DNA from: Escherichia coli
GTDB taxonomy: Bacteria > Pseudomonadota > Gammaproteobacteria > Enterobacterales > Enterobacteriaceae
DNA length: 64,000 nt
Strand: one strand, 5' to 3'
Assembly (NCBI RefSeq): GCF_001677475.2
Contig: NZ_CP015229.1
Shown here one piece after another: positions 50,501 through 56,500 of this stretch (positions are counted from its first letter, which is position 1; each line of letters opens with the position of its first letter). The position numbers are program-made.

Positions 50501-53500
50501 GTAGCGACGATGCCAGTGAAACCGCCTTCAAAAGCCGCAATCCATTGTTCTAGCGCACCCTGTTGACGAGCGCGCTCGAATTCGCGTTGTAGAGTGAATT
50601 CATCAGGTAATCCCATCCGGCTACTTTCATTAACTACTTCGCGGCCCAGCGCCAGTGAATAACCGAGCTGGTGCAATTCTTCCGCAACAAGGGTGGCAGT
50701 GCGGAATTCCACCCAGCCAGACTCTGCATAGTGGTGAAAATCACGTCGCCAGTGCGATAATTTTGGGGCAAGCGAATTAATAAATTGATTCAAAGACTCC
50801 ATAACCTTTCCCGTCATCAGTAAAAAGTGTGACCCGGTTCACGTAGCGATAGTTTTTACTTATCACTAACTGATTTTTCACAGTTTTAACCGTTCATAAA
50901 TTACCCTGACACAATCATCTGCATTAAAGTAGATGCCAGTTTCTTTGGTCTGATAAATAACGGTTATCGGTGGCGTCATGGCTTTTCAGGTAAAAATTCA
51001 TCAAATTCGGGCTTTTGTTGAAGTGGCTCGTCAGGGCAGCATTCGCGGAGCGAGCCGAATGTTGAATATGTCGCAACCGGCACTGAGTAAATCTATTCAG
51101 GAGCTGGAAGAAGGGTTGGCGGCACAACTCTTTTTTCGCCGTAGTAAAGGCGTGACGTTAACTGATGCCGGTGAAAGTTTTTATCAGCACGCCAGTCTTA
51201 TTCTTGAAGAGCTGCGCGCAGCGCAAGAGGATATTCGCCAACGACAAGGGCAACTGGCAGGGCAAATTAATATCGGCATGGGGGCCAGTATTTCCCGCAG
51301 TCTGATGCCAGCTGTCATATCTCGTTTTCATCAGCAGCATCCGCAGGTAAAAGTACGCATTATGGAAGGGCAACTGGTATCGATGATTAATGAATTGCGC
51401 CAGGGGGAACTGGATTTCACCATCAATACCTATTATCAGGGACCCTACGACCACGAATTTACTTTTGAGAAATTACTGGAAAAGCAATTCGCGATCTTTT
51501 GCCGCCCGGGACATCCCGCCATTGGTGCCCGTTCGCTCAAACAGTTACTGGACTACAGCTGGACAATGCCGACGCCACACGGCAGCTACTACAAACACTT
51601 GAGTGAATTGCTTGACGATCAGGCGCAAACGCCACAGGTCGGCGTAGTCTGCGAGACGTTCTCAGCCTGTATCAGTCTGGTGGCAAAAAGCGATTTTCTC
51701 AGCATACTACCTGAAGAAATGGGCTGCGATCCCTTGCACGGACAGGGGCTGGTGATGTTGCCGGTTAGCGAAATTTTACCGAAAGCGACCTATTATTTGA
51801 TTCAGCGGCGTGATAGTCGCCAGACACCACTGACCGCGTCATTAATCACGCAATTTCGGCGAGAATGCGGCTATCTGCAAAGTTAAAACTGCATAAAAAA
51901 ATAGAGTCTGTCGACATCCGCCAGACTCTACAGTACACACAGCAGTGCATCCTCGTCTTAAATCCGGCCTGGGGTCCTGGTGACCGGTGACAGTGTTATA
52001 ACGGTTTTACCCATCCGTTGCCAATTTTCTTCAGTGACAGATTTCACGAAAATATAAGTTAAATCATTTGTCTTGTGATTGCATAATCATGCATCGTTAA
52101 TCGACGAGTAAATTTACCGGGCGAGTAGCCCGTTCGACGCTTAAACATATTGCCGAACGATTCAGCTGAGGCATAGCCCAGACGATGGGCAATTTTGGTC
52201 AACGAATATCCATCATCAAGAAGCGTCACTGCAGAAATAACGTGCATTTGCTGAATCCAGTGGCGAAATGTTAATCCCGTCTCTTTAACAAATAAGCGCA
52301 TGAGTGTACGGCTACTGACGTTAATTTTATCCGCCAGATTATCCAGTGTTGGCAGATACCCTTGGTTGTTTAGCAAATTCTCACAAAGCTGCTGTAGCCG
52401 CTCATCATTTGGCCAAGGGAGTTCAAGTGACATTTTCACCCCCATTTTTATTTCCTGAAGTATCAGTGTCTCGAGGGCTGAAAAACGTAACTGTTGTTTA
52501 TCTGTGGTACTTTGCGACGGTGGAAGTTGGTTAATTGCAATTAGTAATTCCCTTAACAGGGGTGAAATACCCGTCATGAAGCAAACTGTTCCCAGAGTTT
52601 CACTTTCCGCTTCTGAAACCAGTACGGTTTTTAAAAGTACGTTGCCTGTCGCAACAAACTTATGCGGCATTTGTGGGGGCAGCCAAAGCGCGCTGCTGGC
52701 ATGGACTAGCCAGACGCTTTCTCCAGCCCATACACGAACGACGCCTTCAGCCGGGTAAAGCAACTGGGCATAGAGATGTTTATGCCAGGGAACTGTACCT
52801 CCATTCAGATGTTCCGAATCCAGTCCGATAATGTGATGCCCTGGTGATGCTTTGGGTTGCAGTGTGATTGTCATTTACAGTAGGTATTTTGTCAGAAATC
52901 ATCAAATAAGCCATGTTAAATTTTAAATATGACGAATGCAAGTTTCCGGATATATACGGTGTAAAGAGTGATGATAATTTCTAAAAAACAGCTTATTGGG
53001 GTGGTAGCGATCGGTATTATTTTGACTGGCGTTGTCTTTTTTATCTGGTGGGTAAGCAAAGGAAGATTTATACAGACGACGGATGATGCTTACATTGGTG
53101 GTAATATCACCACGGTGGCAAGTAAAGTTTCTGGTTATATTACTGCTATAGAGGTGCGCGATAATCAGAGCGTAAAAAAAGGCGATATTATCCTGCGTCT
53201 CGATGATCGGGATTATCGTGCAAATGTCGCCAGGCTTGAGGCAAAAATAAAAAGTAGCAAAGCCAATCTCGAAAGCATTCAAGCCACTATTGCGATGCAG
53301 CAGTCGATAATTCAAAGTGCCAGTGAAACATGGCAGGCAGTAAAACATGAGAAGCAAAAGCGCCTGCGAGATACTGAACGTTATGAAAAACTCGCACAAT
53401 CAGCGGCAATATCGCAACAAATTATTGATAACGCCAGGTTTGACTACCAGCAGGTCGCAGCAAAGGAGCGCAAAGCCGCGAACGATTTCCTGGTGGAGAA

Positions 53501-56500
53501 GCAACGGCTGGCAGTTTTATCTGCTCAGGAAGAAAACGCACGTGCGAGTATCGAAGAAGTTCAGGCCGCTTTGACTCAGGCACTACTGGATCTGGAATAT
53601 ACCCTTGTTCGTGCGCCGATTGATGGCATTGTCGCAAACCGCAGCGCCCATACAGGCAGTTGGGTGGAAGGCGGCACATCGTTAGTTTCACTAGTACCAG
53701 TCAGTGAGTTGTGGGTTGATGCAAATTATAAAGAAAACCAAATAGCGGGAATGAAGCCAGGAATGAAGGCTGAGATCCGTGCTGATATTCTCAAAGGGGA
53801 AGTGTTTCACGGTCACATTGAAAGCCTTTCCCCAGCGACAGGAGCCAGTTTCAGCTTGATTCCGATAGAAAATGCCACTGGCAATTTCACCAAAATTGTG
53901 CAGCGTGTCCCGGTACGGATTGCATTTGACGACTCAAAGGAATTAAAGCAACTCCTTCGCCCGGGACTGTCCGTCACCGTCAGGGTTGATGAGAGATGAT
54001 GTCTATGCGTAAACATATTGCTTTCGCCAGTATGTGTATTGGATTATTTATTGCTCAGCTTGATATTCAAATTGTATCGTCATCCCTAAATGAAATAGGT
54101 GGTGGTCTGTCCGCAGGTAAAGACGAAATGGCCTGGCTTCAGACCAGCTATTTAATTGCTGAGATTATTGTTATTCCACTTTCTGGGTGGCTGTCACGGG
54201 TATTTTCCACTCGTTGGCTTTTTACTCTATCCGCGGGAATATTTACTTTAATGAGTATCGCTTGTGGACTTGCATGGAATATTCAGATCATGATTTTGTT
54301 TCGTGCTTTACAGGGAGCTGCTGGCGCATCCATGATCCCTTTAGTTTTCACGACGGCGTTTATTTATTACCAGGGTAAAGAGTTGGGGTTGGCTGCTGCG
54401 GTAGTCAGTGCGCTGGCCTCACTGTCACCGACGCTAGGGCCAACTCTGGGTGGCTGGATCACTGATAACCTCGACTGGCGATGGCTATTTTATATCAATA
54501 TATTACCGGGTATATATTTAGTTTTGAGTATTCCTTTTCTGGTTAATATTGATAAACCTGATCTCTCTTTACTGAAAGTTGCTGATTATCCGAGTATTAT
54601 CCTGTTGACCATGACACTGGGATGTCTGGAATATACCCTTGAAGAAGGAGCGCGCTGGGGATGGCTGGATGATAATACTATTTTGCTGACATCAGTTATG
54701 GCATTGGTGAGCTTTACTTTATTTGCTGCGCGTACACTTACAATATCCAATCCGATAATGGATCTTCATGCTTTTAAGGATAAAAATTTTACGCTGGGAT
54801 GTTTTTTTTCTTTTTCTGGAGGGGTTGGGATATTCTCTACTGTATATTTAATACCTGTGTTTTTGGGGCAGGTTCGCGGATTAAATGCCGAAGAGATAGG
54901 TTTTGCCGTTTGCACAACAGGTATTTTCCAGTTATTTTCTGTTCCCTTTTACTTCTGGTTAAGTAAAAAAATAAATCTGCGATGGCTGTTGATGGCGGGG
55001 CTGGGCGGATTTGTGTTTTCAATGTATCTTTTTACCCCTATAACCCACGAATGGGGATGGCAGGAGTTACTGTTTCCACAGGCAATTAGAGGGATTTCGC
55101 AGCAGTTTGCGATGGCCCCCATCGTAACATTAACGCTGGGGGGAATTCCAAAAGAACGGCTGAAGTTAGCCTCTGGTGTATTTAATTTAACACGTAATCT
55201 TGGGGGCGCGATTGGTATTGCCCTGTGTGGCTCTATTCTCAATAATCGAACTAATTTTCATTTTTCGAGAATGGGTGAAAAAATGGTTTCTGTTCCCCAT
55301 ACGGTGAATGACTTCATTTCCAGAAGTGCTTTGTTTTTTAATCGCAGTGGAAGTGACCAGACATCGGAAATACTGGCTTCAACCAAATTATTGAGTCAAT
55401 TGATGCTGAGGGAGGCGCAAACTATGGCATTTTCGGATACCTTTCTGCTAATCAGTGGTCTGTTATTTATCGCATTTTTGTTGGTTCCTGCTATGAATAA
55501 ATCATCCTGATCGGAGCCTGTGCTGAATTAAACTCGGGCTAAACTGTTCGATACTGCTAACAGGCTAGTATAAAATGCCCCGCCTGCGCAGATACTCACA
55601 GGTATGAAGTAGAGTATTGTTTCAATCTGTGAAGGGAACGATGCAGTAAGTATGAACAATTAACCCGTCTGAATCACGACGTGTGAAGGTGCATAGGAGG
55701 TTACATGAACCTTGACGACAAATCGCTGTTTCTTGACGCCATGGAAGATGTCCAGCCGCTGAAACGTGCTACAGATGTCCACTGGCATCCAACGCGTAAC
55801 CAACGTGCGCCGCAGCGTATCGACACGCTGCAACTTGATAATTTCCTCACCACCGGATTTCTCGACATCATCCCGCTAAGTCAGCCGCTGGAGTTTCGGC
55901 GGGAAGGGTTGCAACATGGGGTGCTGGATAAGCTGCGCAGTGGTAAATATCCGCAACAGGCGAGCCTGAATCTTTTGCGCCAGCCGGTGGAAGAGTGCCG
56001 CAAAATGATGTTCAGTTTTATTCAACAAGCCCTGGCGGATGGTTTGCGTAACGTGCTGATTATTCATGGTAAAGGGCGGGATGATAAATCGCATGCCAAT
56101 ATTGTCCGCAGCTATGTGGCGCGCTGGCTGACCGAATTTGATGATGTTCAGGCATATTGCACCGCGCTACCGCATCATGGCGGCAGCGGGGCGTGTTACG
56201 TCGCACTACGTAAAACGGCGCAGGCGAAGCAAGAAAACTGGGAGCGCCACGCTAAGCGCAGCCGTTGATCTCGAGACGCATCCGCGGCTTATGCCGCCAG
56301 CACGCGGTTGCGTCCATCATTTTTCGCCCGATACAAAGCATCATCCACGCGTTTAAACAGTTCATCGATGCTTTCATTTCCTTCGTGATGCGCCACACCA
56401 ATGCTGACGGTAAAGCGTGGTAAGCCCGAAATACTCACTTTTGCCACGCTTACGCGGATAGTTTCAGCCAGCGAAAGCGCGGTATCCAGTGGGGTTCTTG

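What the first reader, a model, noticed from the sequence alone, without database searches (positions are those of the whole stretch)
51989..55704. Second accessory efflux module (AraC regulator divergent from EmrA-like/EmrB-like pair) between mcaS and smrA
About 3.6 kb not expected from K-12 synteny (abgR-mcaS-smrA are adjacent there, as I recall) encodes an AraC/XylS regulator divergently transcribed from a translationally coupled HlyD-family adaptor and 14-TMS MFS pump. The coding sequence here is visibly more AT-rich than the flanking abg and dbpA genes, consistent with horizontal acquisition. The regulator has a cupin-type sensor domain, so the pump is probably induced by a small-molecule ligand.
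Basis: partly seen in the sequence, partly recalled or inferred. Interest (0 to 1): 0.65.

Follow-up and report, generated by a model that had tools for sequence, protein, structure and literature searches.

The report
Acquired EmrAB-like efflux cassette with regulator
A 3.6-kb foreign DNA cassette carrying a sensor-regulator gene and a two-gene drug-pump operon sits between mcaS and smrA in about a quarter of E. coli strains (including major pathogenic lineages) but not in K-12; it is real and clearly acquired, but it is an ordinary, already-annotated and uncharacterised member of a well-known pump family.

Summary
Three intact genes lie between mcaS and smrA: an AraC-family regulator with a cupin domain (52059-52874, minus strand), a HlyD/EmrA-like adaptor (52971-53999) and a DHA2 MFS pump (53996-55510) that overlaps the adaptor by ATGA. 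K-12 MG1655 lacks them. The block has the lowest GC of the whole window (43.9% against 50.3%).

The true insert is 52095-55694 (3600 nt), which replaced 111 nt of the ancestral intergenic region. Four results support insertion rather than loss in K-12:
- Citrobacter and Salmonella have ogt next to smrA, with no trio.
- K-12 keeps the smrA upstream sequence shared with those outgroups; the window does not.
- Homology to the same cassette in Kluyvera, Providencia and a rare Salmonella starts at 52095, exactly where K-12 homology stops.
- The regulator's last 11 codons are host DNA and are absent from its orthologs.

The cassette is in 1457 of 5426 complete E. coli genomes, including EC958 and 536, and shows several independent inactivating lesions. 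The pump is 28-33% identical to EmrAB and EmrKY, and the regulator is 32% identical to NimR. The substrate is unknown and I found no paper on it. Verdict: a new member of a known kind, of modest interest.

The parts
52095..55694 (.). Foreign insert (3600 nt). It replaces 111 nt of the ancestral mcaS-smrA intergenic region (K-12 intergenic nt 209-319). A 5-nt TGCAT sits at both junctions (52090-52094 and 55690-55694).
   Evidence: K-12 homology ends at 52094 and resumes at 55695. Homology to the Kluyvera, Salmonella and Providencia cassettes runs from 52095/52097/52109 to 55495/55497.
52059..52874 (-). AraC/XylS-family regulator, 271 aa: an N-terminal cupin-type sensor domain and a C-terminal double HTH. 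Codons 261-271 (MHDYAITRQMI, 52094-52062) plus the stop (52061-52059) are read-through into host DNA.
   Evidence: Pfam HTH_18, AraC_binding and Cupin_2. 32% identical over residues 27-260 to K-12 NimR. Orthologs are 259-262 aa and end where host DNA begins. The cupin motif G25-x5-H31-x-H33-x3-Q37-x6-G44 and H71 are invariant in 7 orthologs.
52875..52970 (.). Divergent regulatory region between the regulator gene and the pump operon. It holds a block of about 45 nt that is nearly invariant across genera (about 52880-52925). The E. coli copy lacks 22 nt present just upstream of the adaptor start in the other genera.
   Evidence: Five-sequence alignment of E. coli, E69, Kluyvera, Salmonella and Providencia: 75% mean column identity, although the coding synonymous sites are saturated. 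Promoter consensus hits are not above chance.
52971..53999 (+). HlyD-family periplasmic adaptor (membrane fusion protein), 342 aa, with one N-terminal transmembrane helix. An alternative GTG start lies at 52968.
   Evidence: Pfam HlyD_D23, HlyD_3, Biotin_lipoyl_2. TIGR00998 EmrA/EmrK 271 bits, below the 390.8 cutoff. 31% identical to EmrA and 33% to EmrK. Best PDB match is EmrA 8zar/8zal, E 1e-43. Hydrophobic segment at residues 5-31.
53996..55510 (+). DHA2-family MFS efflux permease, 504 aa, intact. Its start overlaps the adaptor stop (ATGA).
   Evidence: TIGR00711 401.8 bits, above the 230.2 cutoff. 28% identical to EmrB and 29% to EmrY, aligned end to end including the last transmembrane helix. 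Best PDB match is EmrB 8zal, E 9e-56. 82% identical to the Kluyvera intermedia homolog.
55511..55694 (.). 184 nt of unknown origin at the right end of the insert. It now forms the whole smrA upstream region, because the ancestral smrA upstream sequence is gone.
   Evidence: No match to the K-12 intergenic region, to the outgroups or to the other cassettes. No terminator-like site on the + strand here.
51887..52094 (.). Host flank: the mcaS gene (51893-51988, minus strand) and its upstream region. It is not part of the insert, but it is a distinct allele linked to it.
   Evidence: Rfam McaS 113.5 bits. 89% identical to K-12 over 208 nt, while abgR and smrA are 97-99.5% identical. About 3878 cassette-free genomes match this flank at only 80-90%.

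Best explanation
A self-contained three-gene cassette was acquired horizontally and inserted once into the ancestral mcaS-smrA intergenic region of an Escherichia lineage.

It encodes two things. The first is a NimR-like AraC-family regulator, whose cupin domain probably senses a small molecule. The second, transcribed divergently, is a two-gene operon for an EmrAB-type efflux pump. In this pump a DHA2 proton-antiport MFS permease sits in the inner membrane and works with a HlyD-family adaptor that spans the periplasm.

The cassette has no outer-membrane channel gene. The pump must therefore borrow a chromosomal one, with TolC the obvious candidate, to expel its substrate across both membranes. 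The regulator most likely binds the conserved 96-nt intergenic region and couples pump expression to the presence of the substrate or a related compound.

Shown:
- gene content, domains and family relationships;
- the insert boundaries and the ancestral empty site;
- conservation of the trio as a unit in other genera;
- long-term purifying selection.

Inferred:
- dependence on TolC;
- ligand control and its sign;
- the direction of transport and the class of substrate.
For: Domains and families.

Tripartite logic: the 42%/52%-identical adaptor and pump pair in Paraburkholderia is followed directly by a NodT-family outer-membrane factor gene. The best solved relatives are the EmrA and EmrB chains of 8zal/8zar.

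Regulator: 32% identical to K-12 NimR over its full length. NimR is an AraC-family single-target regulator of the divergently transcribed MFS exporter nimT (PMC5934670).

Cassette as a unit: the same arrangement (AraC divergent from HlyD-MFS) occurs in five different contexts. These are Kluyvera cryocrescens, Providencia rettgeri, a rare Salmonella and two metagenome contigs.

Insertion:
- The outgroups have ogt next to smrA with no trio.
- K-12 retains the smrA upstream sequence shared with Citrobacter and Salmonella, and the window lacks it.
- Cassette homology begins at 52095, exactly where K-12 homology ends.
- The regulator's 11-residue C-terminal tail is encoded by host DNA and is absent from orthologs.
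- GC is the lowest in the window.

Function maintained:
- Against Kluyvera and Providencia, synonymous sites are saturated (pS 0.71-0.78) while pN is 0.10-0.23.
- The intergenic operator region is conserved.
- 7 of the 10 full- or near-full-length E. coli carriers translated have all three ORFs intact.
Against: - There is no experimental or expression evidence, and no paper was found.
- At least five independent inactivating lesions occur among the 12 carriers examined. About 141 genomes carry only part of the cassette. The pump is therefore dispensable in many lineages.
- The E. coli copy lacks 22 nt just upstream of the adaptor start that the other genera keep, which could weaken translation.
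- Its AT-richness makes H-NS silencing plausible (inference).
- The adaptor is below the curated EmrA/EmrK cutoff.
- Promoter consensus matches are at chance level.
- The sign of regulation is unknown; NimR is annotated as a repressor.
Confidence: 0.8

Rival explanations
1. The trio is ancestral at this site and K-12-like strains lost it by deletion. In that case there was no horizontal acquisition on the E. coli side.
For: The K-12 intergenic region is homologous to the last 36 nt of the regulator ORF (28 of 36 matches). A divergent Escherichia genome, E69, whose flanks are only 82-93% identical, has the trio at the same site.
Against: - Those 36 nt are exactly the part of the ORF that orthologs lack, and cassette homology stops at 52095. 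They are therefore host DNA, not a gene remnant.
- K-12 keeps about 80-110 nt of smrA upstream sequence shared with C. rodentium, C. koseri and Salmonella, which carriers lack. A deletion cannot recreate that sequence.
- The outgroups have no trio.
- In E69 the cassette is 95-98% identical while the flanks are 82-93%. That pattern suggests later transfer by recombination rather than deep vertical descent.
Confidence: 0.07
2. The cassette is a silent, decaying relic in E. coli with no current function. It is either not expressed or is under relaxed selection.
For: - Independent lesions: a HlyD frameshift (2014C-3011), a 39-nt MFS deletion (23CRST029), a 204-nt deletion (M1/5), an MFS frameshift (E69), and a 1.85-kb deletion in the Nissle/ATCC 25922 type.
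- Shigella flexneri carries a pump truncated at the C terminus.
- 22 nt are lost upstream of the adaptor start.
- Within E. coli, dN/dS for the adaptor is 0.59.
- The segment is AT-rich.
Against: - 7 of the 10 full- or near-full-length carriers have three intact ORFs of identical length.
- 1316 of 1457 carriers keep at least 80% of the cassette at 95% identity or better.
- dS of 0.02-0.04 within E. coli indicates long residence without general decay, and dN/dS is 0.15-0.23 for the regulator and the pump.
Confidence: 0.2
3. The pump is a dedicated exporter of an endogenous or niche-specific metabolite (for example a fatty acid, bile salt or aromatic acid) rather than a multidrug pump. The regulator senses that compound through a metal-containing cupin site.
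For: - The regulator's cupin motif (H31, H33, Q37, H71) is invariant from E. coli to Acinetobacter homologs and is present in NimR.
- NimR/NimT is a single-target, narrow-spectrum system (PMC5934670).
- From my own knowledge, not tested here: related MFS tripartite pumps have specific physiological substrates (FarAB fatty acids, EmrKY/VceAB bile salts).
Against: The neighbouring genes differ in every one of the six contexts and suggest no common pathway. There are no substrate data of any kind.
Confidence: 0.35

Closest known systems
EmrAB-TolC and EmrKY-TolC of E. coli K-12 (tripartite MFS efflux pumps; structures 8zal and 8zar)
   Same: - A DHA2 MFS permease plus a HlyD-family adaptor with a single N-terminal transmembrane helix.
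- Adaptor gene first, then pump gene, tightly linked.
- No outer-membrane gene in the operon.
- End-to-end alignability.
   Different: - Only 28-29% (pump) and 31-33% (adaptor) identical.
- The adaptor is 342 aa against 390/387 aa. It lacks the roughly 44-residue C-terminal tail of EmrA and scores below the curated EmrA/EmrK cutoff.
- The regulator is a divergently transcribed AraC/cupin protein. In K-12 the gene upstream of emrA is mprA, which encodes the MarR-type regulator EmrR; for EmrKY it is the EvgAS two-component system. Both regulator classes are from my own knowledge.
- It is accessory and AT-rich rather than core.
NimR (YeaM) / NimT (YeaN) of E. coli K-12
   Same: - An AraC-family regulator with an N-terminal cupin domain, transcribed divergently from an MFS exporter across a short intergenic region.
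- 32% identical over the full length.
- The same cupin H-x-H...Q...H motif.
- NimR is a single-target local regulator (PMC5934670).
   Different: - NimT is a 12-TMS MFS with no adaptor, so it exports across the inner membrane only.
- NimR is annotated as a repressor; the sign here is unknown.
- The Acinetobacter homologs of the regulator (38-43% identical) follow the NimR/NimT layout rather than the tripartite one.
Orthologous AraC / HlyD / DHA2 cassettes in Kluyvera cryocrescens, K. intermedia, Providencia rettgeri and rare Salmonella enterica
   Same: - The same three genes in the same order and orientation.
- 70-82% protein identity.
- A conserved intergenic operator block.
   Different: - Each sits in a different chromosomal neighbourhood.
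- Their regulators are 259-262 aa and lack the E. coli read-through tail.
- They keep 22 nt upstream of the adaptor start that E. coli lost.
- Synonymous sites are saturated against E. coli, so none is a recent donor.
- None appears to be characterised.
Paraburkholderia adaptor / DHA2 pump / NodT outer-membrane factor operons
   Same: Adaptor 42% and pump 52% identical, in the same order.
   Different: They carry their own outer-membrane factor gene. No AraC homolog was detected nearby. Their GC is high.

Membership tests
DHA2 (14-TMS drug:H+ antiporter-2) family of MFS efflux permeases | Scores above the curated family model cutoff (NCBIfam TIGR00711 efflux_EmrB) | tested here: met
   401.8 bits against a cutoff of 230.2, covering residues 9-496 and model positions 3-480 of 485.
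DHA2 (14-TMS drug:H+ antiporter-2) family of MFS efflux permeases | Fourteen transmembrane segments | tested here: inconclusive
   The protein aligns end to end with EmrB and EmrY, including the final helix (F483, V497 and P498 are invariant). A crude hydropathy scan resolves 11 strong segments and leaves 3 weaker ones. No dedicated topology predictor or structure model was run.
DHA2 (14-TMS drug:H+ antiporter-2) family of MFS efflux permeases | Proton-coupled export of substrates | not testable with these tools
   Needs transport assays.
EmrA/EmrK family of MFS-pump periplasmic adaptors | Scores above the curated family model cutoff (NCBIfam TIGR00998) | tested here: not met
   271 bits against a cutoff of 390.8; the EmrA equivalog model gives 209.7 against 563. 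The protein is therefore filed only under the broader HlyD/membrane-fusion superfamily. There it passes TIGR01730 RND_mfp at 135.7 against a cutoff of 94.9, and Pfam matches HlyD_D23 and HlyD_3.
Tripartite MFS efflux systems (EmrAB-TolC type) | Adaptor and permease encoded together and coupled | tested here: met
   ATGA overlap at 53996-53999. The pair is conserved in all orthologous loci.
Tripartite MFS efflux systems (EmrAB-TolC type) | Use of an outer-membrane channel (TolC or a NodT-family factor) | not testable with these tools
   The cassette has no channel gene. Indirect support: the Paraburkholderia homologs carry a NodT-family gene. The same window has a NodT-family gene at 10134-11507 in another efflux operon.
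AraC/XylS family of transcription regulators (cupin-sensor subclass, NimR-like) | C-terminal double helix-turn-helix domain | tested here: met
   HTH_18 7.3e-22 over residues 180-258; two HTH_AraC hits.
AraC/XylS family of transcription regulators (cupin-sensor subclass, NimR-like) | N-terminal AraC-type cupin ligand-binding domain | tested here: met
   AraC_binding 5.7e-8 and Cupin_2 1.1e-6 over residues 25-86. Full-length alignment with NimR.
AraC/XylS family of transcription regulators (cupin-sensor subclass, NimR-like) | Binds the divergent intergenic region and responds to a ligand | not testable with these tools
   Only indirect evidence: a conserved block of about 45 nt in the intergenic region across genera.
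Genomic island or mobile element | Integrase, transposase, tRNA target, terminal inverted repeats or plasmid carriage | tested here: not met
   The insert holds only three genes. There is no tRNA or other Rfam hit apart from McaS. The apparent plasmid hits are mislabelled chromosome fragments. Only a 5-nt TGCAT is repeated at the junctions. The insert is best described as an illegitimate or microhomology insertion, later spread by homologous recombination.

The most novel reading that the evidence does not exclude
The insertion did more than add a pump: it rewired both of its neighbours.

On one side it removed the ancestral smrA upstream region. With no terminator detected after the pump gene, the SmrA DNA endonuclease may now be expressed by read-through from a ligand-controlled efflux operon.

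On the other side the cassette is in near-complete linkage with a distinct McaS allele. The 12-nt loop of the first hairpin of this sRNA is replaced, while the stem and a GGA are kept.

Carriers (for example the ExPEC strains EC958 and 536) and K-12-like strains would then differ at this locus in sRNA control of curli, motility and biofilm, and in smrA control, as one haplotype.
Probability: 0.12. Interest if true: 0.5.

Novelty: new member of a known kind. Interest (0 to 1): 0.3.

Why it matters
The cassette is a third EmrAB-type pump. About a quarter of sequenced E. coli carry it, including the pandemic ST131 reference strain EC958, UPEC 536 and other extraintestinal pathogens. The K-12 model strain lacks it, so it is missing from most efflux inventories.

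RefSeq flags the intact pump gene as a frameshifted pseudogene in six of the seven fully intact carriers I inspected. Proteome-based pan-genome and resistance surveys could therefore overlook it.

Three things would be useful to know: its substrate, whether it needs TolC, and what its NimR-like sensor detects. These would show whether it contributes to intrinsic resistance or to niche adaptation, for example to bile, fatty acids or host-derived compounds.

As biology it is an ordinary example of a well-understood class, and nothing about its architecture is unexpected.

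Tried and rejected
1. Deletion in K-12. I first read the 36-nt K-12 match to the 3' end of the regulator gene as a deletion scar. I rejected this after the outgroup comparison, the ortholog C-terminus alignment and the cassette-homology boundary.

2. A real pseudogene. PGAP marks the pump 'frameshifted' in VCSW5, MS8345, 2020CK-00188, E371, 536 and O169:H41. Translation shows intact 504-aa ORFs. The alternative frames are full of stops. EC958 is annotated as intact, WP_000987381.1. 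The flag matches the end of a C-terminally shifted Shigella flexneri protein, WP_162471458.1, and is probably a reference artefact.

3. Plasmid carriage. The three high-identity E. coli hits in PLSDB are a 4.9-Mb record, a 'plasmid' whose cassette sits in chromosomal context (fnr, smrA, dgcM, zntB), and a partial copy I did not inspect.

4. Promoter and terminator consensus scans of the region were uninformative.

5. The right-hand 184 nt and the K-12-specific 111-121 nt show no mutual homology above shuffled controls.

6. Six literature searches found nothing on this cassette. The terms were gene names, RefSeq protein accessions, and phylogroup/efflux words.

7. The species-representative genome scan returned only 7 loci, because it depends on exact peptide words. 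The absence of E. albertii and E. fergusonii from that list is therefore not evidence that they lack the cassette.

8. The regulator is intact in all 12 carriers. This is not significant: if five lesions fell at random, the chance that all would hit the pump genes is about 0.25. Truncated regulator variants also exist in the protein cluster.

Full report
**1. What is there**

The interval between the sRNA gene mcaS (51893-51988, minus strand; Rfam 113.5 bits) and smrA (55705-56268) holds three open reading frames.

- 52059-52874 (minus strand) encodes a 271-aa protein. It has a C-terminal HTH_18 domain (7e-22) and an N-terminal AraC_binding/Cupin_2 domain.
- 52971-53999 (or from a GTG at 52968) encodes a 342-aa HlyD-family adaptor. 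It has one strongly hydrophobic N-terminal segment.
- 53996-55510 encodes a 504-aa MFS protein. It passes NCBI's curated DHA2 model (TIGR00711, 401.8 bits against a cutoff of 230.2).

The adaptor stop and the pump start share ATGA. K-12 MG1655 has abgR, mcaS and smrA directly adjacent. The abgR-to-smrA gap is 329 nt there and 3818 nt here.

The three genes have 41.8-46.5% GC and GC3 of 0.39-0.44. The block as a whole (43.9%) is the lowest-GC 3.45-kb stretch of the 64-kb window.

**2. Exact boundaries and direction of the event**

Alignment with K-12 gives homology from the abgR stop to 52094 (185 of 208 nt identical) and again from 55695. The window-specific 3600 nt (52095-55694) stand in place of 111 K-12-specific nt.

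K-12 homology runs 36 nt into the 3' end of the regulator ORF, which at first looked like a deletion scar in K-12. Three further results reverse that reading.

- **Outgroups.** In Citrobacter rodentium, C. koseri and Salmonella, ogt lies directly next to smrA, with neither the abg genes nor the trio. The 80-110 nt upstream of smrA in those genera is homologous to the K-12 sequence (76-89% identical). The window matches only the last 10 nt plus the coding region.
- **Cassette homology.** Nucleotide homology between the window and the orthologous cassettes of Kluyvera, Salmonella and Providencia spans 52095/52097/52109 to 55495/55497. It begins at the very base where K-12 homology ends.
- **Regulator tail.** Orthologous regulators are 259-262 aa, and their last residue aligns with residue 260 of the E. 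coli protein. The E. coli protein carries 11 extra residues (MHDYAITRQMI), encoded by 52094-52062, which is host intergenic DNA.

The empty K-12 site is therefore ancestral. The cassette was inserted, lost the regulator's own stop codon, and reads through into host sequence.

The right-hand 184 nt of the insert (55511-55694) match nothing I could compare them with. The only junction feature is a 5-nt TGCAT on both sides. There is no integrase, transposase, tRNA or inverted repeat. The apparent plasmid copies are mislabelled chromosomal fragments.

**3. The cassette is a unit**

The same arrangement, an AraC regulator divergent from the adaptor and pump, occurs with 63-82% protein identity in five other places:

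- Kluyvera cryocrescens (L019);
- Providencia rettgeri (L022);
- a rare Salmonella enterica lineage (L023/L024);
- two metagenome contigs (L036, L038).

Each has different neighbours. K. intermedia has the pump at 82% identity, at a contig end.

Against Kluyvera and Providencia, synonymous sites are saturated (pS 0.71-0.78) while pN is 0.10-0.23. This shows long-term purifying selection and means there was no recent transfer from these genera. Despite the saturation, the divergent intergenic region keeps a nearly invariant block of about 45 nt next to the regulator start, as expected for an operator/promoter. The E. coli copy lacks 22 nt just upstream of the adaptor start.

More distant homologs of the regulator in Acinetobacter (38-43% identical) pair with a 12-TMS MFS and no adaptor. 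A 42%/52%-identical adaptor and pump pair in Paraburkholderia is followed by a NodT-family outer-membrane factor gene.

**4. Distribution in E. coli**

The cassette is found in 1457 of 5426 complete genomes, always once. 1316 of them carry at least 80% of it, and all copies are at least 95% identical. Carriers include EC958, UPEC 536, PMV-1 and MS8345. Nissle 1917 and ATCC 25922 carry a copy with a 1.85-kb internal deletion.

Of 12 carriers translated, 7 have all three ORFs intact at 271, 342 and 504 aa. The others show five different lesions in the adaptor or pump. Shigella flexneri has a pump shifted at the C terminus.

Within E. coli dS is 0.02-0.04, consistent with long residence. In E69, a genome labelled E. 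coli whose flanking genes are only 82-93% identical, the cassette sits at the same site but is 95-98% identical. This points to spread between lineages by homologous recombination.

**5. What it most likely does**

The nearest characterised pumps are EmrAB and EmrKY: 28-29% identity for the permease and 31-33% for the adaptor, aligned end to end. The best solved structures are the EmrA and EmrB chains of 8zal/8zar.

The most likely mechanism is therefore a tripartite MFS efflux pump driven by the proton gradient, using a chromosomal outer-membrane channel. TolC is the default candidate. A NodT-family gene at 10134-11507 in the same window is another. This step is inferred.

The regulator is 32% identical over its whole length to K-12 NimR. 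NimR is an AraC-family, single-target regulator of the divergently transcribed exporter nimT (PMC5934670). A cupin motif is invariant in seven orthologs (G25-x5-H31-x-H33-x3-Q37-x6-G44, plus H71) and is present in NimR. It suggests a conserved, possibly metal-assisted, ligand site.

Local control of the pump operon by ligand is the best guess. Whether the regulator activates or represses is open, and the substrate is unknown.

**6. Comparison and novelty**

The pump passes the membership test for DHA2. The adaptor fails the curated EmrA/EmrK test (271 bits against 390.8), so it should be called HlyD-family and EmrA-like. The regulator is AraC-family and NimR-like.

The genes are already annotated generically in public genomes. 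I found no publication on them. This is a new, uncharacterised member of a known kind. Interest is modest. The useful additions are:

- the exact insertion anatomy;
- the demonstration that the trio moves as a unit;
- the prevalence in ExPEC lineages;
- the annotation artefact that hides the pump gene.

Noticed in passing
window 51893-51988 (-), and flank 51887-52094: The McaS sRNA here is a distinct allele. The 12-nt loop of its first hairpin is ACCAGGACCCCA, against CAGAGGAGACAA in K-12. The stem is preserved and a GGA is kept, and both alleles fold alike. The 208-nt flank is only 89% identical to K-12, while abgR and smrA are 97-99.5% identical. The allele is almost perfectly linked to the cassette: about 1461 genomes match at 95% or better, against 1457 carriers, and 3878 match at 80-90%. 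The C. koseri mcaS-like sequence resembles the window allele in this loop (by eye).
   Followed up: partly
window 53996-55510; loci L001, L011-L013, L029, L031: RefSeq/PGAP labels the pump gene a 'frameshifted' pseudogene ending at the window equivalent of 55451 in six genomes where the 504-aa ORF is intact. EC958 has it annotated as intact (WP_000987381.1). The false end matches the shifted C terminus (...AFSVPFC) of a Shigella flexneri RefSeq protein, WP_162471458.1.
   Followed up: yes
window 55511-55704: Carriers have lost the smrA upstream block that is conserved in K-12, Citrobacter and Salmonella. No + strand terminator-like site follows the pump gene, and one consensus promoter match lies at 55548-55576. 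smrA may be read through from the pump operon or use a new promoter.
   Followed up: partly
window about 46629 to about 51700 (abgT-abgB-abgA-abgR): Many cassette carriers have deleted almost the whole abg operon, leaving fragments of abgT and abgR: Nissle, MS8345, 2020CK-00188, E371, EC958, 2014C-3011, 23CRST029, M1/5 and E69. The window strain, VCSW5 and O169:H41 keep abg together with the cassette. In Citrobacter and Salmonella neither abg nor the cassette lies between ogt and smrA. The ogt-smrA interval is therefore a repeatedly remodelled site.
   Followed up: partly
L026 (Citrobacter koseri) 6664-6721: The C. koseri ogt-smrA intergenic region contains a segment 82% identical to the 3' two-thirds of mcaS, although C. 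koseri has no abg operon there. This suggests mcaS predates the abg insertion.
   Followed up: no
window 5088-12679: This is the 'first' efflux module implied by the finding's title. It comprises an unclassified 221-aa ORF, an AcrA/MexA-like adaptor, an RND permease (1035 aa), a NodT-family outer-membrane factor (10134-11507) and a Bcr/CflA-type MFS. The outer-membrane factor is a possible alternative partner for the pump studied here.
   Followed up: no
window 40000-64000: No complete E. coli genome in the collection is more than 98.8% identical to this 24-kb stretch. The source strain is therefore not closely represented there.
   Followed up: no
L009 (E. coli E69) against window 53700-53999 and 61500-63000: The divergence pattern is mosaic. 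Inside the otherwise 95-98% identical cassette there is an 83% patch at the 3' end of the adaptor gene. A 97-99.7% identical stretch lies further right, among flanks that are 82-93% identical. These are recombination tracts.
   Followed up: no
window 52034-52047: GTGA-N6-TCAC, a CRP-like core, lies upstream of mcaS and 12 nt beyond the regulator's stop codon. It is retained in both haplotypes. The insertion therefore left the mcaS promoter-proximal region intact.
   Followed up: no
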